A DNA stretch of 64,000 bases from Promethearchaeota archaeon (GCA_048938385.1 JBHLMG010000001.1:192001-256000); one strand, 5' to 3'. Positions 41,262 through 50,452 are shown, counted from the first letter of the stretch. Program-made: numbers and translations. Notes: generated from the sequence alone by a model not told the origin.

Positions 41262-41543
41262 ATGCAGGTTGTTGTTCGAACAATCGGACCATTTACTGAA
41301 ACTTTAGGCTTTCACCAGATTACTCTAGCCCTGAAAGGACATACTGTACAAGACCTCCTACAACAACTCTGTACAGAACGCGGAAAGGGATTCTGTAATG
41401 CAGTTTTTGATGAAAAGGGAAAACTCCGTCGTTATATCAAACTCCTTGTGAATGGGCGCGGGTTGCATGTGTTACAGGGATTGGATACACCATTATCCGA
41501 TGGGGATGTCATCGCAATATTTCCACCCGTCGCCGGAGGCTAA
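41262..41543 (+). CDS. MoaD/SAMP1-like ubiquitin-fold sulfur carrier, copy A
   Basis: LVNGR, LSDGDVIAIFPPVAGG with C-terminal GG. Confidence 0.9.
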   Translation: MQVVVRTIGPFTETLGFHQITLALKGHTVQDLLQQLCTERGKGFCNAVFDEKGKLRRYIKLLVNGRGLHVLQGLDTPLSDGDVIAIFPPVAGG

Positions 41544-42871
41544 AGGGTGATTCCTAATTTCTCCCAGAGGACTGGAACAACACGATTCAAGGCTTTTTCA
41601 ACCATTTCTGGCTTAATTGTCACTACTTGATGATTATTCACAATATGTTTGCCATTTACAAAGACATGCTCAACATCATGAGCGGTGCATCCATAGACGA
41701 TGTATCCATAGACTCCGGCGGGTAATATTGGGGTGACTCGTGGCTTGGGGTGAAGGATGACGATATCGGCGCGCTTCCCTGGTTCGATGGATCCGAGTTG
41801 GTCGCTTAATCCATAAATCTGTGCACCGTTTATTGTTGCCATTTCAATGACTTGTTGTGGTGTTGTCACTCGAGGATCGAGGTGGTGGACTTTGTGAATG
41901 AGGTACGCCGTACGAATGTTTTCGATCGCGTCGAAGATAAACCCGTCATTGCCTAAACAGACCGGAATCCCAAGCTCGTACATCTCTCGGACTGGGGCGA
42001 CACCGACAGCATTGTTCATGTTGCTCATTGGATTATGCGCCACTGTGGCCCCACTACCCCGAATTAATTCGAGTTCATCGCGGTTGATGTGAACACAGTG
42101 GGCTAGCACTACATCAGAACCGAGTACTCCGAGGTCAAACAGGCGTTCAATAGTGCGTTTATCGTATCGTTCGATGTTATGATAGACATCGATAAGCCCT
42201 TCACTAGTATGGATAGTAATCGGTGCGTGCAGTTCATCTGCTTGGGTACGAGTTTTTTGAATTAATTCATCACTGAGCGTAAAGGAGGCATGCAGACTAT
42301 ACATGCCATTTAGCAGCTCATCTGGGTTTTGCTCCAGTTTCTTTAGGAACCTAATGTTCTCTTTTAGTCCCCGTTCGCCTTCCTCCTTGGAGTTGCGTTC
42401 TGTCGCTTCAAAACCAAGGATGCCACGAATACCGACCTCCCTTACTCCCTTTGCTATTGCGTCTAATACCCCTTCTATTGAGTTAGGTCCTGAATATGTA
42501 TCGGCAAAACATGTTGTGCCACTTTTAACAAACTCGTAACATGAAGCTAAGGCGCTAGCATTAGCATCTTCATTTACGAAAGCGGTATCAACTTTCCACC
42601 AAATCCGGTCTAATATTTGTAAAAAATCCGTAGTGGGTTTAATATCGAGGGGTGCCCCTCGGAGCATTATTCCATAGAGATGCGTGTGCCCACAAATGAA
42701 CCCTGGCAAAACTATGCGGCCACGGCCATCAATTTCGTGATCGGCTCTATCCTTGATGTTTTTCCCGATTTTAGCGATCATCGAATCTTCAACAAGAACA
42801 TCGGTATTTTCTAGCACTTGCCGGTGTGCATTCATCGTTACGACGAGTGCGTTTCGAATCAGAATTTTCAT
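41540..42871 (-). CDS. ssnA: SsnA-like amidohydrolase
   Basis: GHTHLYG, DFLQILDRIWWKVD, GFEATERN, ENIRF, HASFT and HNPMSNMNNAVG match SsnA signature segments (from memory of the family). Confidence 0.82.
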   Translation of the reverse strand: MKILIRNALVVTMNAHRQVLENTDVLVEDSMIAKIGKNIKDRADHEIDGRGRIVLPGFICGHTHLYGIMLRGAPLDIKPTTDFLQILDRIWWKVDTAFVNEDANASALASCYEFVKSGTTCFADTYSGPNSIEGVLDAIAKGVREVGIRGILGFEATERNSKEEGERGLKENIRFLKKLEQNPDELLNGMYSLHASFTLSDELIQKTRTQADELHAPITIHTSEGLIDVYHNIERYDKRTIERLFDLGVLGSDVVLAHCVHINRDELELIRGSGATVAHNPMSNMNNAVGVAPVREMYELGIPVCLGNDGFIFDAIENIRTAYLIHKVHHLDPRVTTPQQVIEMATINGAQIYGLSDQLGSIEPGKRADIVILHPKPRVTPILPAGVYGYIVYGCTAHDVEHVFVNGKHIVNNHQVVTIKPEMVEKALNRVVPVLWEKLGITL

Positions 42872-42977
42872 GATAGCCCAACTCAAAGGATTAGAAAGAG
42901 GCTGAATTTCAGAAACTCTAGATAGTTGAGCAAGCCTTTAAGCCTTCCAATCCTCTTTTTTCTGGGCGTGTGTTTTC

Positions 42978-43475
42978 ATGAACAAATCACCCAACAAAGT
43001 TCTGGTCGTTGATCCAGAGAAATGCACAGGTTGTGGCATCTGTTCTCTCGTGTGTTCCTTTCGGCATACTCAAGAATACAATCCCGCACGAGCGCTACTT
43101 ACGATTATTCGAGATGAAAAGCACGGAATCAACATACCTGTCATTTGTCAGCATTGCGATGTACCGCTGTGTATGGAAAGCTGCCCGGCAGATGCAATAT
43201 TTCGTGATACCGAAACTAATGCTGTCTGTATCAACCAAACAAATTGTATTGGTTGCCATCAATGTCTAGTTGCCTGTCCATTTGGAGGAATCCATATCGA
43301 TCCTGCAGATGGACGCACAGTGAAATGCGACCTTTGTGAAGGTTATGCTATGTGCGCCCAATTTTGTCCCAGAGGAGCGTTGCTATATTTAAAGCCGGAC
43401 GAATTGACCGCTCGGCTTCGAGAGAAGGGGATTAAACGCGCTGCGGAATATCTTCATGTAATTACGAGGAAGTGA
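42978..43475 (+). CDS. Four-cluster 4Fe-4S electron-transfer subunit (DmsB/CooF-like)
   Basis: CTGCGICSLVC, CQHC..C..CP, CIGCHQC..CP, KCDLC..C..CP; 4 bp before the AOR gene. Confidence 0.92.
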   Translation: MNKSPNKVLVVDPEKCTGCGICSLVCSFRHTQEYNPARALLTIIRDEKHGINIPVICQHCDVPLCMESCPADAIFRDTETNAVCINQTNCIGCHQCLVACPFGGIHIDPADGRTVKCDLCEGYAMCAQFCPRGALLYLKPDELTARLREKGIKRAAEYLHVITRK

Positions 43476-43479
43476 AAAA

Positions 43480-45417
43480 ATGAGTGAAAATCACCCATAT
43501 TATGGTTATGCCGGTCGTATTGCGGAAGTCGATTTAACGAAATCCGAGGTGAAAATCACGCCCTTAGACCGAGATTTTGCCCGAAAATATCTCGGCGGAA
43601 CTGGGTTTGCGGCTCGGATCTTGTGGGATCGAGTGAAACCATCGACTGAGCCCCTCGATCCTGATAATCCCTTATTTTTCGGCATCGGACCAGTTACAGG
43701 CGCTTTCTTTTCACCCTCTGGGCGTTTTATGGTTGCCTATAAATCTCCTCTCACAGGGTTTTGGGGTGAAGCCCACTGTGGAGGCCATTGGGGACCCCAA
43801 CTCAAGTATGCTGGCTTTGATGCACTAGTTATTCAAGGAAAGGCATCATCACCAGTCTATCTCATGGTCCAGGACAAAGCTGTTTACATTCGTGATGCCG
43901 ACCACTTGTGGGGGCGTGACACCATGGAAACCACCGATACGATACGCGAGCTACACGGAGATAATGACATTGAGGTTGCAGCTATCGGAATAGGCGGAGA
44001 GAACCTCGTTCGGTATGCAGCCATAATCGGCTCTTATTATCGAGCTGCAGGTCGGGGAGGTGCGGGCGCGGTCATGGGCAGCAAGAATCTGAAAGCCGTG
44101 GCTGTCCGTGGGCTGGGAGGAGTCAAGGTGGCAAATCCCGGGAAGTTCATGGCTGCGGCTCGGAAAGCTTACAACCAGATGACCACTGGAAAATGGGGCG
44201 AGATGAATGAGGAATCTCTGGGAAAATATGGGACTACAAACCTCGTGACAGCAATTGGTGAAATCGGACGGCTTCCAACAAAGAATCACACGACAGGTGT
44301 GTTCGAAGATGCTGATGCTATTGGACCTGAAACAATTCGCCAAAAATACCGGACAAGCCGCGAATCGTGTTTTGGTTGTGCGTTACAATGCAAATTCACA
44401 TCTGAGGTTAAATCAGGTCCTTATCAAGTAATTACAGGAGGTCCTGAGTATGAAACACTCATGGCCTTCGGTAGTAATTGCCTGAATAGCAACATTGAAT
44501 CAATTCTGTACGCAAACCAGTTATGCAATAGGTATGGTCTAGACACAATCAGCACTGGCTGTACTATCGCCTTTCTTTTTGAAGCAGCCGAAAACGGCAT
44601 CATTACGCCAAATGAAGTAGGTGGACTTGACCTCTCTTGGGGTAATGATAAAACCATTATTGCTCTCGTCGAAAAAATTGCACACCGAAAAGGGATTGGA
44701 GACCTACTCGCTGAGGGATCATTACGCGTGGCACAAAAAATAGGTAAGGGTGCCGAACGGTTTGCTATCCATGTAAAAGGTATGGAGGCTTCTGGGCAGG
44801 ATCCACGGCCACAACAAAGCGTTGGCCTTACATACGCGACCAATGTACGCGGTGCCGATCATTTAAGGAGCCTCAGCTGCTATGAGGAGTTGGGTTTTCC
44901 GGATGTCGCAATAGAACGATTCGGAGAGGACCATGCTACTGAAGTCATGGATTTGCATACTACTAGCTTCAAAGGACATCTCATCAAGGATCAAGAGGAC
45001 CTGTACGTACTCGTTGATAGCATCATTCTTTGCAAGTACGGGACAATGTGGCCTCCTGTCTATTACTTTGATATCATGGCAGAAATGCTCAAACCCCTAA
45101 CTGGTTTTGACGAATTCAGTGAGGTACAACGACTTCGACTGGTTGCGGAGCGCATTAGTAATCTTAGGCGTTGTTTTAATGTCCGCGAAGGGGCAACACG
45201 CAAGAACGAACAGCTCCATCCCCGGTTTACCGAGGAGCCAATGCCTGAAGGGCCTGGCAAAGGGCGTGTCTGTAATCTAGATCCCATGCTTGACGAATAC
45301 TATGAAGTGAGAAACTGGACAAAAGAAGGACTCCCAAGGCGTTCCGAATTAAAACGGCTTGGTTTAGAAGATGTTGCTGATGAATTGGCAAAAACAGGAA
45401 AGGTGGTAGACGAATAA
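43480..45417 (+). CDS. Tungsten aldehyde:ferredoxin oxidoreductase family (AOR/WOR), copy A
   Basis: KSPLTG, GAVMGSKNLKA, CFGCALQC, GPEYET, YGLDTIS, RGADHL, LDEYY..R.W. Confidence 0.95.
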   Translation: MSENHPYYGYAGRIAEVDLTKSEVKITPLDRDFARKYLGGTGFAARILWDRVKPSTEPLDPDNPLFFGIGPVTGAFFSPSGRFMVAYKSPLTGFWGEAHCGGHWGPQLKYAGFDALVIQGKASSPVYLMVQDKAVYIRDADHLWGRDTMETTDTIRELHGDNDIEVAAIGIGGENLVRYAAIIGSYYRAAGRGGAGAVMGSKNLKAVAVRGLGGVKVANPGKFMAAARKAYNQMTTGKWGEMNEESLGKYGTTNLVTAIGEIGRLPTKNHTTGVFEDADAIGPETIRQKYRTSRESCFGCALQCKFTSEVKSGPYQVITGGPEYETLMAFGSNCLNSNIESILYANQLCNRYGLDTISTGCTIAFLFEAAENGIITPNEVGGLDLSWGNDKTIIALVEKIAHRKGIGDLLAEGSLRVAQKIGKGAERFAIHVKGMEASGQDPRPQQSVGLTYATNVRGADHLRSLSCYEELGFPDVAIERFGEDHATEVMDLHTTSFKGHLIKDQEDLYVLVDSIILCKYGTMWPPVYYFDIMAEMLKPLTGFDEFSEVQRLRLVAERISNLRRCFNVREGATRKNEQLHPRFTEEPMPEGPGKGRVCNLDPMLDEYYEVRNWTKEGLPRRSELKRLGLEDVADELAKTGKVVDE

Positions 45418-46604
45418 TGGCAGTGGATTTAAGCGTAAATATTGCGGGGATTCCTCTTCGTAATCCCGTTCTTACGGCTGCTGGACCCACAAGTCGTGAT
45501 GGTGAAACACTCGTCAAAGCCGCTAGAGGTGGGGTAGGCGGTTTAGTGGCGAAAACCATTAGCGTGAAACCTGCCGCAGTTCCCCGACCTAACATGCAGA
45601 CACTCGACAGAGGACAAAGCCAATGGTTGCTTGCGACAGCAATGCAACATCAAGTAGTACACCTTGAACGTATCAAGGTTCGTGGTGCTTACGGGTTACT
45701 AAATCATGAATTATGGAGCGATAAGCATTATCAAAAATGGCTCGATCACGAATATCCTCGTGCAAAGGAAACCGGCCTATCGCTCATCGCCTCGGTCGGA
45801 TATACACCCGAAGAACTAGCAAAGCTTGCCCCCCTCGTTCAAAAGGCTGGTGTCGATGGAATTGAGTTCAGCACCCATTATCTCGAAACGGACCCCAAAG
45901 TCTTTAATGAAGTAGCGAAAACGCTGCAAGAGGCGGTAGATATTCCGATTTTTGCTAAGATGAGTCCCCATGTGAAGGATTTAACCATCTTCACAAAAGC
46001 GGTGGATCGGTATGTGGATGGTTTTGTCGCCATCAATACACTTGGACCGTGTCTTCACATTGACATAGAAACAGGTCGTCCTTTACTTGGTGGACCGGGT
46101 GGGGTTGGATGGCTTTCAGGACCGGCTATAAAACCACTTGCAGTTCGGTGCGTTGCTGACATCGCTCAGGGCACATCCAAACCAGTTGTCGCTGTAGGTG
46201 GTGTTAGCACTGGAGCTGATGCCATTGAGTTCTTTATGGTTGGAGCTTCAGCAGTTCAAGTTTGTACTGCTGCCATCCTCGAAGGGCATTCAGTTTACGG
46301 GCGTATTGCTAGAGAGATCGCAGCATTCCTTGAGTTGCATGATAAAGCATCGCCTGAAGATATTCGAGGACAAGCGTTGAAGCATTTACCAAGAGACACA
46401 CTGCGTGTTGAAAGCCTTCCCCCAACAGTGAATGAAGAATCCTGCTCTGGCTGTGGGTTATGCACTACATCCTGCACATATTCAGCAATTTCTGTCAATC
46501 CAGAAACGACAAAGGCTCAAGTAGACTCTAACCTGTGTTATGGGTGTGGTGTGTGTGTAAGTATCTGTCCTCACAGAGCCCTTTCTTTTAACCCATCAAA
46601 ATAA
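45417..46604 (+). CDS. FMN-dependent dihydroorotate/dihydropyrimidine dehydrogenase-like reductase with a C-terminal 2x[4Fe-4S] domain (PreA/YgfK-N-like)
   Basis: NPVLTAAGP, KTI, KMSP, AINT, LSGPAIKP, GGV, GASAVQVCT and two CxxCxxCxxxC motifs. The ELNxSCP loop is replaced by EFSTHY. Confidence 0.85.
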   Translation: MAVDLSVNIAGIPLRNPVLTAAGPTSRDGETLVKAARGGVGGLVAKTISVKPAAVPRPNMQTLDRGQSQWLLATAMQHQVVHLERIKVRGAYGLLNHELWSDKHYQKWLDHEYPRAKETGLSLIASVGYTPEELAKLAPLVQKAGVDGIEFSTHYLETDPKVFNEVAKTLQEAVDIPIFAKMSPHVKDLTIFTKAVDRYVDGFVAINTLGPCLHIDIETGRPLLGGPGGVGWLSGPAIKPLAVRCVADIAQGTSKPVVAVGGVSTGADAIEFFMVGASAVQVCTAAILEGHSVYGRIAREIAAFLELHDKASPEDIRGQALKHLPRDTLRVESLPPTVNEESCSGCGLCTTSCTYSAISVNPETTKAQVDSNLCYGCGVCVSICPHRALSFNPSK

Positions 46605-46619
46605 GGTGAACTTGACGCG

Positions 46620-46907
46620 ATGTTAAAAAAACCAAAAGTTACCGTTCGTATGTTCACGAGCCTCCGAGCCTTAACAGGAACCAGAGAAACGGAATTGGAA
46701 GCATCTGATGTGCAAGAGGTCATTGATATTCTAGGTAACCGTTTTGGAGAGAAGTTTAACCAAATGCTACTTGAACCCGATGGGTCGTTAAAAAGATACT
46801 TCCATGTTCTCGTTAACGGACGGCACATTCGGCTTCAACAAGGGCTACAAACATGCCTCTCTGATGGTGATGTTGTAGCGATTTTTCCTCCGATTGGAGG
46901 AGGTTAG
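46620..46907 (+). CDS. MoaD/SAMP1-like protein, copy B
   Basis: LVNGR, LSDGDVVAIFPPIGGG. Confidence 0.9.
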   Translation: MLKKPKVTVRMFTSLRALTGTRETELEASDVQEVIDILGNRFGEKFNQMLLEPDGSLKRYFHVLVNGRHIRLQQGLQTCLSDGDVVAIFPPIGGG

Positions 46908-48526: not shown

Positions 48527-50452
48527 TCATTCCGGCAGTTCGATCCCCTGAGTAGTAAGATCGCGCACTACATCCTTAAGTCCCACACGCTCAAGGGTTT
48601 GCTTAGTTGGCAGCCCATCTCTTAACCGCCAACCTCGCTGTTCATAGTATTCATCCAGCATTTGGTCAAGTTCAACTACTTGGCCCTTTGACGGTCCCTC
48701 TGGGGCGGGTGTGTGGGTTAGTCGTCGTGGAAGCGCATCATCTTTTCGGCGAATCCCTTCTCGAACATTGAATCCGCGATTTAAGTTAACGATTCGCTCG
48801 CCAATTAATCGAAACTTGGCTTCTGTAAATTTTATTCCGACAGTCACATCAAAGGTCGCTACTACATCCTCGTAAAAGAGGACTGGGGGGATTAATGTTC
48901 CATACTTGCACACACCTAAAGATTCGACGACTGCACAAAAATCCTCGTTCTCCTTTACCATGACACCTTTATACTTCGGATTCAATCGGTCACCGATTTC
49001 AGGTAAATACGCTCTCCCATAACGAATACCTATCTCCTCATCAAACCCAACTTCATCCAGGACCGGGAAGGCATACAGATGGTCTGCACCCCGCGCTGCC
49101 GTCGCCGACGCTAAACCCATCGACTTTTGTGCACGAGGTTCTTGCCCTGCAATTTCTTGTTTCTTGCAGTGCATCACGAATTTCTCAGTTCCTCGACCAA
49201 TTTTTTGCGCGGCACGATAACTTCCTTCAGCCAGGATATCGCCGAACCCTTCACGCTTGGCAATCATGTGAATTAGTTTGATTATGGTTTTGTGGTTTCC
49301 CCAGCTCAAATCAATCCCACCAGTATCTTCAGCAGTAATTAATCCTTCATCCCAGGCTTCCATCGCCCAACTTATCGTAGCACCAGTTGAAATTGTGTCG
49401 AGTCCGTATAGATTCGAGATGTGATGTCCATACAATATTGATTCTAGGTTATCATTACCACAACGACTCCCTAGAGCTGCTTGGGATTCATATTCAGGGC
49501 TTCCACCACAATAGGCGTATGGACCAGTTTTGACGAGGGTGTATCTTCCACAGCGTTGTAAACAAGCGTAATCTGCCCTAGGCTTCACAAGGTACTGGTT
49601 CTTAATAGCTTCACCACTAATCTTTTGGTATTGAGCAAAAACTCCTGATCGCATGTTGTAACTAGGAAGTCGACCAATTTCTTGCATCAGTTCAACAAGA
49701 TTCGTCGTTCCGTACTTAGCCCGGCTCGCTGTAAAAGGACTATCCAACATTTTTTGGTGTAATTTTTCTATTACCTCAAGGTATCTGTCAGGTTTGGCTA
49801 TTGAAATATCTTGACTCCCACGGACAGCTACGGCTTTCAGATTCTTGCTCCCCATGACCGCCCCCAAGCCCGTTCTTGCTGCGGCACGATCATAATCGTT
49901 AATTATGGCTGCATAGCGAACGAGGTTCTCCCCAGCTTGACCAATGCATGAGACTCGAAGACCCGGATCACCTTGGTTTTCCTTAATTATCTCCTCTGTT
50001 TCGTTTGTATCTCGACCCCACAACTCCGTGGCATCTAACAGACGGGCAACACCGTTGTCAATGAATAAATACACAGGACTCCTTGCACGCCCTGTAACGA
50101 CGATAGCATCAAATCCAGCGAATTTTAATTCAGGTCCCCAATGCCCTGCTGAATGGGCTTCTCCAAAGATGCCTGTTAACGGGGATTTTGCGGCTACCAC
50201 ATAACGTGAAGCTTGGGGCCAAAGGGTTCCAGTAAAAGGTCCTGTTGCCCAAATCAGGACATTTTCGGGAGTGAGGGGATCTATTGAGGGTCCTACCTTG
50301 TCGTATAAAATTCTAGAAGCGAATCCTTGACCACCCAAGTAGGTAAGGGCGAACTCTCGGTCCAGTGGAATGGGCTTACAATGACCCTTTGTCATATCAA
50401 CATGTAATAGTTGTCCAGCATATCCACCAAGTTTTGTTTTCGACTTCGTCAT
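48527..50452 (-). CDS. Tungsten AOR/WOR family oxidoreductase, copy B
   Basis: KSPLTG, GAVMGSKNLKA, PEYES, YGLDTIS, RGADHL. The Fe-S motif reads DYACLQRC. Confidence 0.95.
   Translation of the reverse strand: MTKSKTKLGGYAGQLLHVDMTKGHCKPIPLDREFALTYLGGQGFASRILYDKVGPSIDPLTPENVLIWATGPFTGTLWPQASRYVVAAKSPLTGIFGEAHSAGHWGPELKFAGFDAIVVTGRARSPVYLFIDNGVARLLDATELWGRDTNETEEIIKENQGDPGLRVSCIGQAGENLVRYAAIINDYDRAAARTGLGAVMGSKNLKAVAVRGSQDISIAKPDRYLEVIEKLHQKMLDSPFTASRAKYGTTNLVELMQEIGRLPSYNMRSGVFAQYQKISGEAIKNQYLVKPRADYACLQRCGRYTLVKTGPYAYCGGSPEYESQAALGSRCGNDNLESILYGHHISNLYGLDTISTGATISWAMEAWDEGLITAEDTGGIDLSWGNHKTIIKLIHMIAKREGFGDILAEGSYRAAQKIGRGTEKFVMHCKKQEIAGQEPRAQKSMGLASATAARGADHLYAFPVLDEVGFDEEIGIRYGRAYLPEIGDRLNPKYKGVMVKENEDFCAVVESLGVCKYGTLIPPVLFYEDVVATFDVTVGIKFTEAKFRLIGERIVNLNRGFNVREGIRRKDDALPRRLTHTPAPEGPSKGQVVELDQMLDEYYEQRGWRLRDGLPTKQTLERVGLKDVVRDLTTQGIELPE

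What the first reader, a model, noticed from the sequence alone, without database searches (positions are those of the whole stretch)
45417..46604. DHOD/PreA-like flavoprotein with no catalytic Cys, translationally coupled to a tungsten AOR
Seen: the FMN barrel and two 4Fe-4S motifs are intact, but the active-site loop ELNxSCP reads IEFSTHY (45861-45881). No PreT or PyrK partner is nearby, and the ATG overlaps the AOR stop. Established: the Cys/Ser of this loop is the general acid/base of DHODH and dihydropyrimidine dehydrogenase. Recalled, needs checking: the YgfK N-terminal domain has AAGP, NTEWS and STMH segments resembling AAGP, NHELWS and STH here. Inference: a ferredoxin-fed reductase for a non-pyrimidine heterocycle, forming a redox module with AOR.
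Basis: partly seen in the sequence, partly recalled or inferred. Interest (0 to 1): 0.7.

Follow-up and report, generated by a model that had tools for sequence, protein, structure and literature searches.

The report
Archaeal purine-ring reductase wired to tungsten enzyme
This Asgard-archaeal gene is a relative of UacX, the recently named ferredoxin-type reductase of the anaerobic uric-acid (2,8-dioxopurine) pathway of gut bacteria. In these archaea its gene cluster holds tungsten aldehyde-oxidoreductase/polyferredoxin pairs where bacteria hold a molybdenum xanthine-dehydrogenase-type enzyme.

Summary
ORF 45417-46604 (+) encodes a 395-aa DHOD/DPD-fold FMN protein with two intact C-terminal 4Fe-4S motifs. 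Its ATG overlaps the AOR stop codon (TAATG). Where DPD/DHOD carry ELNxSCP it has a short loop, IEFSTHY, with no Cys.

The missing Cys is a clade signature (ExSxHY, NxELWS, GW[LM]SG), invariant in 40 aligned homologues. The clade branches apart from PreA/PyrD. It includes the C. difficile protein that sits in the published uricolytic cluster, UacX (42% identity, E 9e-114).

E. coli YgfK is the proven 2,8-dioxopurine reductase.

The window also encodes an SsnA-like ring-opening amidohydrolase, a deaminase-like amidohydrolase and two carbamoyltransferases. A hydantoinase and a carbamate kinase lie elsewhere in the genome.

In bacteria the clade sits beside an XdhD-type Mo hydroxylase. In Asgard, Bathyarchaeia and Nitrososphaeria it sits beside polyferredoxin+AOR pairs, up to three per cluster. 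No XDH-family gene was found in the AOR-type Asgard genomes searched, with one exception.

Best reading: a polyferredoxin/ferredoxin-fed oxopurine-dearomatising reductase working with SsnA in ATP-yielding purine fermentation. The substrate and the role of the AOR are inferred, not tested. It is a new variant of a known kind.

The parts
45417..46604 (+). UacX-type FMN / 2x[4Fe-4S] reductase (P0001, 395 aa), DHOD/DPD fold with no catalytic Cys
   Evidence: It is 42% identical to C. difficile UacX. It falls in the STHY clade, SH-aLRT 97.
45861..45881 (+). Active-site loop IEFSTHY (residues 149-155). It replaces ELNxSCP and the roughly 13-25 residue mobile loop of DPD/DHOD.
   Evidence: E150, S152, H154 and Y155 are invariant.
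45702..45719 (+). NHELWS motif (residues 96-101). It is the counterpart of DPD NIELIS and of YgfK NTEWS.
46443..46571 (+). Two CxxCxxCxxxC(P) motifs (C343-C353 and C374-P385) of the C-terminal 2x[4Fe-4S] ferredoxin domain
43480..45417 (+). Tungsten-type aldehyde:ferredoxin oxidoreductase (AOR1, 645 aa, cluster group A). Its stop codon overlaps the start of P0001.
42978..43475 (+). Polyferredoxin with four 4Fe-4S motifs, an AorA-like partner of AOR1
46620..46907 (+). MoaD/SAMP-like small protein, the last gene of the operon. It recurs beside AOR and the UacX-like gene in relatives.
41540..42886 (-). SsnA-like amidohydrolase, transcribed divergently from the operon. It is the likely ring-opening partner.
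   Evidence: The best NCBIfam hit is SsnA, 382 bits against a cut-off of 444. It is 28% identical to E. coli SsnA, E 4e-58. SsnA-like genes lie within 10 kb of the reductase in 24 of 49 clade loci.
41229..41543 (+). Second MoaD-like small ORF, between the two amidohydrolase genes
   Evidence: tblastn gives 46% identity to the downstream MoaD-like protein. L010 has the same arrangement.
39748..41148 (-). TRZ/ATZ-family amidohydrolase (nucleobase deaminase-like, an SsnA paralogue)
   Evidence: It recurs in 6 archaeal loci.
38641..39714 (-). OTC-family carbamoyltransferase 1 (32% identical to YgeW)
37578..38597 (+). OTC-family carbamoyltransferase 2 (34% identical to YgeW)
48527..50452 (-). Second cluster-type AOR (AOR2, group C), 50% identical to AOR1
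50449..50946 (-). Polyferredoxin partner of AOR2

Best explanation
P0001 is an archaeal member of the UacX clade of the DHOD/DPD superfamily. It is a single-subunit enzyme with an FMN barrel and two [4Fe-4S] clusters.

Proposed mechanism: it takes low-potential electrons through its ferredoxin domain and delivers a hydride from FMN to an oxopurine, most likely 2,8-dioxopurine. This breaks the aromaticity of the pyrimidine ring. The neighbouring SsnA-like amidohydrolase then opens the ring and pulls the unfavourable reduction forward.

Downstream steps: a hydantoinase, two carbamoyltransferases and a carbamate kinase would turn the ureido groups into carbamoyl phosphate and ATP.

The catalytic Cys of DPD/DHOD is replaced by a short loop with invariant Ser, His and Tyr. 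These residues, or protonation on a ring nitrogen, would supply the proton.

In this organism the electrons are proposed to arrive through the AorA-like polyferredoxin from the translationally coupled tungsten AOR. This follows the AorAB-plus-third-subunit design, with the FAD/NAD subunit AorC replaced by this reductase.

Shown: fold, cofactor motifs, clade membership, signature residues and conserved gene context.

Inferred: the substrate, the proton donor, the coupling to SsnA, physical association with polyferredoxin/AOR, and what the AOR itself oxidises or reduces.
For: Fold and cofactors are covered.

Clade membership:
- The STHY clade of 53 rows (SH-aLRT 97) is separate from PreA/PyrD (SH-aLRT 99).
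- Its signature motifs are invariant.

Link to UacX:
- The C. difficile protein of this clade (P0362) lies in the order PALP, M20, Amidohydro_3, SsnA, permease, P0362, HyuA, XdhD. This is the cluster described for UacX by Li et al. (PMC12507026).
- P0001 is 42% identical to it over its full length, E 9e-114.
- C. perfringens and E. multiforme have the same cluster type.

Link to YgfK:
- YgfK is the experimentally shown 2,8-dioxopurine reductase. It has collinear AAGP, NTEWS and STMH motifs.
- Its N-terminal domain scores 19.3 bits (E 2e-8, single comparison) against the clade HMM, and 2.2 bits against a PreA/PyrD HMM.

Gene context:
- The window holds an SsnA-like gene, a deaminase-like gene and two YgeW-like carbamoyltransferases.
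- Elsewhere in the genome are a hydantoinase above its curated cut-off, an M20 deacylase, and a carbamate kinase 48% identical to YqeA.
- Archaeal relatives place the SsnA-like gene directly upstream of the reductase, with two OTC-family genes and a carbamate kinase nearby.
- A separate genuine PyrD exists on contig C28.

AOR link:
- The order polyFd-AOR-reductase, with a MoaD-like gene following in most loci, recurs in Hermod-, Thor-, Heimdall-archaeota, Nitrososphaeria and Bathyarchaeia. That is 13 of 23 archaeal loci.
- The polyferredoxin and AOR are homologues of AorA and AorB (E 3e-35 and 2e-114). In AorABC the polyferredoxin cluster FS4 feeds the flavin of the third subunit (PMC10413684).
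- Li et al. note that reduction of 2,8-dioxopurine with NAD(P)H is detectable only when coupled to SsnA. A low-potential donor would therefore make sense.
Against: No biochemical data exist for this protein. I read no result for UacX itself: Li et al. describe a UacX assay in their Methods, but the Results I read report only YgfK+SsnA.

The genome is 89.8% complete and shows no XDH-family enzyme that could make 2,8-dioxopurine from urate. The true substrate may therefore differ.

The SsnA-like protein is below both NCBIfam cut-offs and only 28% identical to E. coli SsnA.

No clear YgeX orthologue was found. Only ThrC-like and Ser/Thr-dehydratase-like PLP enzymes are present.

An Anaerolineaceae subclade with the same signature sits beside MTHFR, with no SsnA within 10 kb.

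Thorarchaeotal loci have deaminase-like and hydantoinase-like amidohydrolases near the gene, but no best-hit SsnA within 10 kb.
Confidence: 0.6

Rival explanations
1. The three polyferredoxin-coupled tungsten AORs replace the molybdenum hydroxylases (XdhD/DOPDH, XDH) of the bacterial pathway. They would hydroxylate or dehydroxylate the purine ring itself. The interconversion of urate and 2,8-dioxopurine is formally like that of an acid and an aldehyde. They would exchange electrons with the UacX-type reductase over the polyferredoxin. On this reading P0001 has the same function as in the best explanation, but the AOR is a pathway enzyme rather than a mere electron source.
For: XDH and AOR occupy the same cluster position and exclude each other.
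- Of 23 archaeal clade loci, 13 have an AOR and none an XDH. Of 26 bacterial loci, 9 have an XDH and none an AOR.
- Within Asgard, families f1 and f6 carry the reductase (own genus 13 of 14 other genomes, f6 24 of 26), and no XDH domain was found in 0 of 18 and 0 of 26 genomes. Family f4 has a divergent STHY-type gene directly beside XdhABC.
- The own genome, a Heimdall genome and a Thor genome have no PF02738 match. Thermogladius and Hadarchaeum, whose clusters lack an AOR, have 3-4 matches.

Three orthologous AOR groups, each with its own polyferredoxin, are conserved in the cluster. Together they are monophyletic against the five other AOR paralogues of the genome.

Without a hydroxylase, the cluster has no route from common purines to a C6-unsubstituted oxopurine.
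Against: No AOR-family enzyme is known to act on N-heterocycles; a 2025 review of tungsten enzymes does not mention heterocycles or purines.

AOR1 is a close relative of canonical broad-range AORs (E 1e-131 to P. furiosus AOR). All three groups keep the PEYE and RGADH motifs that hold the catalytic Glu and His.

The polyFd-AOR-DHOD-like order also occurs with a Cys-bearing, DPD-like protein in a deltaproteobacterial contig (L062), where no hydroxylase would be needed.

One Asgard genome (G009) has both the reductase and an XDH.
Confidence: 0.3
2. The protein is a ferredoxin-dependent dihydropyrimidine dehydrogenase (PydAc/PreA-like) that reduces uracil or thymine. The hydantoinase elsewhere in the genome would act as the dihydropyrimidinase.
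For: The best NCBIfam model is PreA and the best solved structure is pig DPD. The architecture without an FAD domain resembles the PydAc variants. The genome has a dihydropyrimidinase-type hydantoinase above its curated cut-off.
Against: The PreA score of 184 bits is far below the 335-bit cut-off. The catalytic Cys and the mobile loop are missing, and the Asn of ELN is a Ser. The clade is separate from E. coli PreA and from Cys-bearing relatives. PydAc has two ferredoxin domains, whereas P0001 has one. The neighbouring amidohydrolase is SsnA-like, not a dihydropyrimidinase. The bacterial members sit in uric-acid clusters.
Confidence: 0.07
3. It is a reductase of the same clade that acts on a different heterocycle. 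Candidates include another oxopurine such as xanthine reduced at C8, an oxidised base such as an 8-oxopurine after deamination, or a hydantoin- or pterin-like ring. On this reading the archaeal pathway only resembles the 2,8-dioxopurine pathway.
For: The genome has no enzyme known to produce 2,8-dioxopurine. It shares only 42% identity with C. difficile UacX. The neighbouring deaminase-like gene has 8-oxoguanine- and guanine-deaminase-type hits. A subclade is linked to MTHFR rather than SsnA. The accessory genes differ from the bacterial set: two OTC-family genes and a ThrC-like PLP enzyme in place of YgeY and YgeX.
Against: The substrate-facing signature residues are invariant between the archaeal proteins and the bacterial proteins of proven uric-acid clusters. 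A divergent STHY-type protein occurs in an Asgard cluster with SsnA, HyuA, OTC, YgeY and XdhABC.
Confidence: 0.2
4. It is only an electron-transfer cap of the AOR/polyferredoxin complex, functionally like AorC. Its former substrate pocket would be vestigial or would bind a soluble carrier.
For: It is the third gene of an aorAB-like operon and is translationally coupled. The catalytic Cys is lost.
Against: The pocket residues (K46, N96, E98, W100, S152, H154, Y155, K181, N207, W232) are invariant across phyla. This includes organisms where no AOR is nearby, such as Clostridia, Hadarchaea and Desulfurococcales. That pattern argues for a conserved substrate site. The gene tracks SsnA more widely than it tracks AOR: SsnA is found in both domains, AOR only in archaeal loci of this clade.
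Confidence: 0.08

Closest known systems
UacX of Clostridioides difficile (UniProt Q181U4; Li et al. 2025, Life Metab, PMC12507026): the proposed ferredoxin-dependent 2,8-dioxopurine (yanthine/isoxanthine) reductase
   Same: The architecture is the same: a DHO_dh barrel plus one C-terminal 2x[4Fe-4S] domain, with no FAD/NAD module. The two proteins are 42% identical over 389 residues (against the strain orthologue P0362). They share the clade and the ExSTHY, NxELWS and GWLSG signature. Both have an SsnA-type amidohydrolase in the neighbourhood.
   Different: The organism is an Asgard archaeon, and the published survey covered bacteria only. The cluster has polyferredoxin+AOR pairs and MoaD-like genes in place of XdhD. 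It has two OTC-family transferases in place of UacY and YgeY. It has no YgeX orthologue. P0001 also has a 30-residue beta-hairpin insert (residues 60-92). I compared it with a strain orthologue, not with Q181U4 itself.
YgfK / DOPOR of E. coli and C. sporogenes: the NAD(P)H:2,8-dioxopurine oxidoreductase
   Same: The proposed reaction is the same, and both are coupled to SsnA. The N-terminal domain of YgfK has the collinear motifs AAGP, NTEWS, STMH, VKLNP, SGxAxxPL and SGGAS. It also has a short loop where DPD has its Cys loop.
   Different: YgfK has 1032 residues, with a GltD-like FAD/NAD(P)H module and further domains. Similarity to P0001 is remote: 19 bits against the clade HMM, and BLASTP finds only short segments. 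YgfK has a Cys two residues after STMH, and P0001 has none.
PreA/PydA dihydropyrimidine dehydrogenase, and the ferredoxin-dependent PydAc of Clostridium chromiireducens (PMC7332683)
   Same: All share the FMN TIM barrel followed by a 2x[4Fe-4S] domain. The FMN and pyrimidine-site Lys and Asn residues are conserved (K46, N96, K181, N207). Pig DPD is the best structural match. Like P0001, PydAc lacks the FAD/NADPH domains and uses ferredoxin.
   Different: P0001 has no catalytic Cys, lacks the mobile loop, and has Ser where ELN has Asn. It falls in a separate clade and scores below the PreA cut-off. It has no PreT partner. PydAc carries two ferredoxin domains. The gene context points to purine-type rather than pyrimidine degradation.
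AorABC tungsten aldehyde oxidoreductase of Aromatoleum aromaticum (PDB 8C0Z; PMC10413684)
   Same: The operon order is polyferredoxin, then W-AOR, then a flavoprotein. A MoaD-like gene follows here, where aorD and aorE follow aorC there; I did not check what those two encode. The polyferredoxin and AOR are clear homologues of AorA and AorB. In AorABC the polyferredoxin feeds the flavin of the third subunit.
   Different: The third subunit here is not a Rossmann-fold FAD/NAD protein. It is an FMN barrel with its own two Fe-S clusters and a heterocycle-type pocket. No complex has been shown.

Membership tests
UacX (PF01180 protein of the reductive uric-acid cluster, sensu Li et al. 2025) | A PF01180 (DHO_dh) protein encoded in the neighbourhood of SsnA. 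This is the operational criterion used in their genome-neighbourhood survey. | tested here: met
   PF01180 scores E 1e-32. The SsnA-like gene lies about 2.5 kb upstream on the opposite strand.
UacX (PF01180 protein of the reductive uric-acid cluster, sensu Li et al. 2025) | An FMN domain plus a ferredoxin domain, with no FAD/NAD(P)H domain or subunit | tested here: met
   No Pyr_redox or PreT-like gene is present in the window.
UacX (PF01180 protein of the reductive uric-acid cluster, sensu Li et al. 2025) | Sequence relationship to the C. difficile protein | tested here: met
   P0001 is 42% identical to P0362 at E 9e-114. P0362 is the only PF01180 gene in the C. difficile cluster. Both fall in the same clade. 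Q181U4 of strain 630 itself could not be fetched.
UacX (PF01180 protein of the reductive uric-acid cluster, sensu Li et al. 2025) | Reduction of 2,8-dioxopurine with a low-potential donor, coupled to SsnA | not testable with these tools
   This needs an enzyme assay.
PreA / dihydropyrimidine dehydrogenase | A score above the curated NCBIfam cut-off for PreA (NF006183) | tested here: not met
   184 bits against a cut-off of 335
PreA / dihydropyrimidine dehydrogenase | The catalytic Cys on the mobile active-site loop (pig DPD C671, motif ELNxSCP) | tested here: not met
   The loop reads IEFSTHY and is about 13-25 residues shorter.
PreA / dihydropyrimidine dehydrogenase | A PreT (GltD-like FAD/NAD plus Fe-S) partner encoded alongside | tested here: not met
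   There is none in the 64-kb window. The only GltD-like hit is on contig C33.
PyrD class 1B dihydroorotate dehydrogenase | A score above the curated cut-offs, a catalytic Cys, a PyrK partner, and the biosynthetic role | tested here: not met
   TIGR01037 scores 171 bits against a cut-off of 270. There is no Cys. A separate PyrD scoring 205 bits lies in a pyr-type context on contig C28.
YgfK / DOPOR | A roughly 1000-residue fusion that includes a GltD-like NAD(P)H/FAD module | tested here: not met
   P0001 has 395 residues. BLASTP and hhalign match only short motifs and the Fe-S part.
YgfK / DOPOR | Signature of the FMN substrate domain (AAGP, NxEWS, STxH, short loop) | tested here: met
AorC-type third subunit of multisubunit AOR | A Rossmann-fold FAD/NAD-binding protein that caps the AorA polyferredoxin | tested here: not met
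   The fold is an FMN TIM barrel plus a ferredoxin domain. Only the position in the operon is shared.
AorA/AorB-type AOR protomer (the neighbouring genes) | A W-AOR catalytic subunit with the conserved Glu and His, plus a polyferredoxin with four 4Fe-4S motifs | tested here: met

The most novel reading that the evidence does not exclude
Asgard archaea and some Bathyarchaeia and Nitrososphaeria would run a tungsten-dependent version of the anaerobic purine (2,8-dioxopurine) pathway. Three specialised AOR-family enzymes, each on its own polyferredoxin, would carry out the ring hydroxylations and dehydroxylation that bacteria perform with Mo/Se xanthine-dehydrogenase-type enzymes. They would pass the electrons directly to the UacX-type reductase. 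From hypoxanthine this would form an internally redox-balanced nanowire-like module. It would be the first AOR-family enzyme acting on N-heterocycles, and the first purine-fermentation route in Archaea.
Probability: 0.3. Interest if true: 0.85.

Novelty: new variant of a known kind. Interest (0 to 1): 0.62.

Why it matters
The anaerobic uric-acid/2,8-dioxopurine pathway was worked out only in 2025, and only for gut bacteria.

This locus shows three things. First, the ferredoxin-type reductase of that pathway forms a well-defined clade with its own active-site signature: no catalytic Cys, and invariant Ser, His and Tyr. That signature is shared with the FMN domain of YgfK. Second, the clade and most of the pathway reach into Archaea: Asgard, Bathyarchaeia, Nitrososphaeria, Hadarchaea and Desulfurococcales, including a cultured Thermogladius. 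Third, in the Asgard families f1 and f6, where no xanthine-dehydrogenase-family domain was found in any genome searched, the hydroxylase slot is filled by tungsten AOR/polyferredoxin pairs.

If the AORs feed the reductase, this is a new output module for the AOR 'nanowire'. If they act on the purine ring, it is a new chemistry for tungsten enzymes. Either way it offers a testable ATP-yielding use of nucleobases by sediment Asgard archaea. It also gives sequence markers (ExSTHY, NxELWS) for separating purine reductases from PreA/PyrD in annotation. At present these proteins are labelled 'dihydroorotate dehydrogenase', 'PreA' or '4Fe-4S binding protein'.

Tried and rejected
Co-folding of the polyferredoxin (alignment A3) with P0001 (alignment A2) scored 0.00, which the tool reports as no verdict. 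It counts neither for nor against binding. AOR plus P0001 exceeds the 1000-residue limit and was not sent.

In the search for sequencing runs, no RNA holder was listed. Only sediment and mangrove DNA runs came up, so nothing can be said about expression.

BLASTP and hhalign of P0001 or A1 against full-length YgfK gave only short segments and the Fe-S part. The relation became visible only with a clade HMM against the N-terminal domain.

The UniProt entry Q181U4 could not be fetched. The supplement of Li et al. holds no sequence. A strain orthologue was reached through cluster look-up instead.

The PLP enzyme at 33524-34795 was considered as a YgeX candidate. It is ThrC-like, not a diaminopropionate ammonia-lyase.

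The own-genome PyrD row in the first tree was extracted wrongly, giving a branch length of 10. It should be ignored; the clade supports do not depend on it.

The idea that the beta-hairpin insert (residues 60-92) docks the AOR was dropped. Thorarchaeotal proteins beside an AOR lack it, and Desulfurococcales proteins without an AOR have it.

The third polyFd-AOR pair, on contig C29, has no pathway genes around it.

Literature searches for AOR together with DHOD, SsnA, purine, archaea or dioxopurine found no prior description.

Full report
**1. The observation**

The ORF 45417-46604 (+) encodes 395 residues. Its ATG shares one base with the TAA of the preceding gene, read as TAATG. That gene (43480-45417) is a full-length aldehyde:ferredoxin oxidoreductase with AFOR_N and AFOR_C domains. 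It is preceded by a 165-residue polyferredoxin with four 4Fe-4S motifs and followed, after P0001, by a MoaD/SAMP-like gene.

P0001 matches Pfam DHO_dh. It also matches the NCBIfam PreA model over residues 3-386, but far below the cut-off: 184 bits against 335. The best solved relative is pig dihydropyrimidine dehydrogenase, domains IV and V. An AlphaFold2 model built on 40 homologues has pLDDT 90.5, and Foldseek again returns DPD and then DHOD B.

Two complete CxxCxxCxxxC motifs are present. Where DPD reads ELNLSCPHG followed by a mobile loop, P0001 reads IEFSTHY (45861-45881) followed by a much shorter stretch. There is no Cys. No PreT- or PyrK-like gene is in the window. A separate genuine PyrD lies on another contig.

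**2. The missing Cys is a clade signature**

In 18 and then 40 aligned homologues from archaea and bacteria, E150, S152, H154 and Y155 are invariant. So are N96, E98 and W100 (the NxELWS motif; S101 is invariant in the 18 and at least 90% conserved in the 40), K46, K181, N207, W232 and all eight Fe-S cysteines.

A tree of 86 DHOD-like proteins taken from 80 genome loci puts these 'STHY' proteins in one clade (53 rows, SH-aLRT 97). It is separate from the Cys-bearing PreA/PyrD proteins, E. coli PreA included (SH-aLRT 99). One row of that tree, the own-genome PyrD, was mis-extracted and should be ignored.

**3. What the clade is**

Two 2025 studies worked out the anaerobic uric-acid pathway. XdhD/DOPDH reduces urate to 2,8-dioxopurine. 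YgfK/DOPOR reduces that compound. SsnA opens the pyrimidine ring and HyuA the hydantoin. YgeW with YqeA, or UacY, together with YgeY, remove the ureido groups. YgeX gives pyruvate.

[quoted passage not shown] I could not fetch Q181U4. A cluster look-up found the C. difficile member of the STHY clade. It lies in the order PALP, M20, Amidohydro_3, SsnA, permease, STHY gene, HyuA, XdhD(853 aa). This is the published cluster, and it holds only one PF01180 gene.

P0001 is 42% identical to that protein over 389 residues (E 9e-114) and shares its VELSTHYV, LNTELWSE and GWLSG motifs. C. perfringens and Eubacterium multiforme have the same cluster type.

E. coli YgfK has AAGP (58), NTEWS (106) and STMH (226), then VKLNP, MSGRALFPL and SGGAS in the same order. 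Its N-terminal domain scores 19.3 bits (E 2e-8 for the single comparison) against an HMM of the STHY clade, and 2.2 bits against an HMM of PreA/PyrD. Two independent lines thus tie the signature to the 2,8-dioxopurine reductases.

**4. Context in the window and genome**

Divergent from the operon lies an amidohydrolase whose best NCBIfam hit is SsnA (382 bits, cut-off 444; 28% identical to E. coli SsnA, E 4e-58). Next come a MoaD-like ORF, a TRZ/ATZ deaminase-like amidohydrolase, and two OTC-family carbamoyltransferases that are 32-34% identical to YgeW.

Elsewhere the genome has a D-hydantoinase above its curated cut-off with an M20 deacylase nearby. It also has a carbamate kinase 48% identical to YqeA. 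It has no XdhA/XdhD homologue and no MoCoBD domain, at 89.8% completeness.

Archaeal relatives show the same parts more compactly:
- OTC, OTC, carbamate kinase, SsnA, reductase, PLP enzyme in Desulfurococcales.
- SsnA followed by the reductase in Hadarchaea.
- A similar cluster in the cultured Thermogladius sp. 4427co.

**5. The AOR link**

| Clade loci | Total | AOR within 10 kb | XDH-type gene | SsnA-like gene |
|---|---|---|---|---|
| Archaeal | 23 | 13 | 0 | 12 |
| Bacterial | 26 | 0 | 9 | 12 |

In most of the 13 archaeal loci the AOR lies directly upstream on the same strand. The XDH in bacteria and the polyFd-AOR pair in archaea occupy the same place next to the reductase.

In a sample of 151 Asgard genomes:
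- The reductase is present in 13 of 14 other genomes of the own genus and in 24 of 26 genomes of family f6.
- No MoCoBD domain was found in 0 of 18 (f1) and 0 of 26 (f6) genomes.
- Family f4 has a divergent STHY-type gene directly beside XdhABC, SsnA, HyuA, OTC and a YgeY that is 60% identical to the E. coli protein.
- One genome (G009) has both the reductase and an XDH.

These genomes are related and partly incomplete, so the counts describe a pattern rather than a test.

The cluster AORs fall into three orthologous groups, each with its own polyferredoxin. Together they are monophyletic against the five other AOR paralogues of this genome. All three groups occur in one ten-gene cluster in L095. 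All keep the PEYE and RGADH motifs that hold the catalytic Glu and His of P. furiosus AOR.

The polyferredoxin and AOR are homologues of AorA and AorB. In AorABC the polyferredoxin feeds the flavin of the third subunit, encoded by the third gene. Here the third gene is P0001.

**6. Mechanism**

Shown: the fold, the cofactor motifs, clade membership, the signature residues and the conserved context.

Inferred: electrons enter through the two clusters of P0001. FMN gives a hydride to C6 of an oxopurine, most likely 2,8-dioxopurine. The proton comes from the Ser/His/Tyr loop, or goes to a ring nitrogen. SsnA-like hydrolysis pulls the reaction forward. Li et al. saw product from YgfK only in the presence of SsnA. 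The two carbamoyltransferases and the carbamate kinase would conserve energy as ATP.

The role of the AOR is open, with two readings:
- (a) It is an AorAB-type electron source in which P0001 replaces AorC. This is favoured by the operon design, the canonical AOR active site, and the recurrence of polyFd-AOR-DHOD-like arrangements with two other DHOD-like clades (L056, L058, L062).
- (b) The AORs replace the Mo hydroxylases. This is favoured by the complementary distribution, the three conserved paralogue groups, and the lack of any other route to a C6-unsubstituted oxopurine.

The two readings do not exclude each other.

**7. Caveats**

- Nothing here is biochemical.
- UacX itself has, in the text I read, an assay protocol but no reported result.
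- The SsnA-like and carbamoyltransferase genes are below the equivalog cut-offs.
- There is no YgeX orthologue.
- An Anaerolineaceae subclade with the full signature sits beside MTHFR without SsnA.
- Thorarchaeotal loci have other amidohydrolases, not a best-hit SsnA, within 10 kb.

**8. Novelty**

The protein is a new, archaeal member of a kind named in 2025. The cluster, with tungsten AOR/polyferredoxin pairs in place of XDH, is a new variant. I found no paper that links this pathway to Archaea, tungsten or AOR.

Noticed in passing
window 48527-50452 (-); also L011, L003 and L001 group-C AORs: The AOR2-type group has Asp where the first Cys of the catalytic subunit's 4Fe-4S motif should be (ADYACLQRC against CFGCALQC in AOR1). 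This implies a cluster bound by three Cys and one Asp, as the tungsten-enzyme review reports for WOR5/ASOR.
   Followed up: partly
window 41229-41543 (+): A second MoaD/ThiS-like small ORF, 46% identical to the one at 46620-46907, is wedged between the deaminase-like and SsnA-like genes. L010 has the same arrangement. Two such sulfur-carrier-like proteins in one catabolic cluster remain unexplained.
   Followed up: partly
window 33524-34795 (+); L004 7351-8628; also L023, L080, L011, L033, L039: A ThrC-like PLP enzyme (NF006050, above its cut-off) recurs beside or near the reductase in archaea and bacteria. It may be a pathway member, perhaps replacing YgeX, rather than a threonine synthase.
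   Followed up: partly
L028 9995-12053 (Leptolinea tardivitalis); also L029, L031, L032, L048: An Anaerolineaceae subclade with the full signature (EFS[IF]HY) is followed directly by a methylenetetrahydrofolate reductase gene. No SsnA, XDH or AOR lies within 10 kb.
   Followed up: partly
L052-L055 and L057; L056, L058, L063 and L065: Two further DHOD-like clades accompany SsnA. One has a P[ST]xCPHM loop and sits with XDH in Clostridia and Anaerolineae. The other has an even shorter loop (IEC..VAY) and sits with AOR+polyFd+MoaD in Anaerolineae. Neither appears to be described.
   Followed up: partly
L043 9995-12400; L044; L047: Chloroflexota carry tandem STHY-type paralogues. One of the pair has a roughly 25-residue insert after STHY. 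In L047 a full-length YgfK lies between them.
   Followed up: no
window 45594-45692 (residues 60-92): A 30-residue beta-hairpin insert is present in the Hermod, Nitrososphaeria, Bathy and Desulfurococcales proteins. It is absent from the 364-aa forms of Thor, Loki, Heimdall, Hadarchaea and bacteria. Its presence does not track AOR adjacency.
   Followed up: partly
L008 5033-8315 (own genome, contig C37); L002 1-1941; L018 5226-7086: The carbamate kinase is repeatedly paired with a radical-SAM gene (MSMEG_0568 family in the own genome). In the own genome a Ser/Thr-dehydratase-type PLP enzyme is also adjacent.
   Followed up: no
L094 (Asgard family f4, complete genome) 5771-19901: This cluster is a bacterial-style uricolytic cluster with XdhABC. 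Its YgeY is 60% identical to the E. coli protein, which suggests transfer between domains.
   Followed up: no
one search places such as G123:C61:41234-42421 and G048:C102:7825-9009: Many genomes of the own genus and of family f6 have a second DHOD-like+Fe-S paralogue of about 410 aa (about 230 bits to the clade profile). It was not found in the own, incomplete genome.
   Followed up: no
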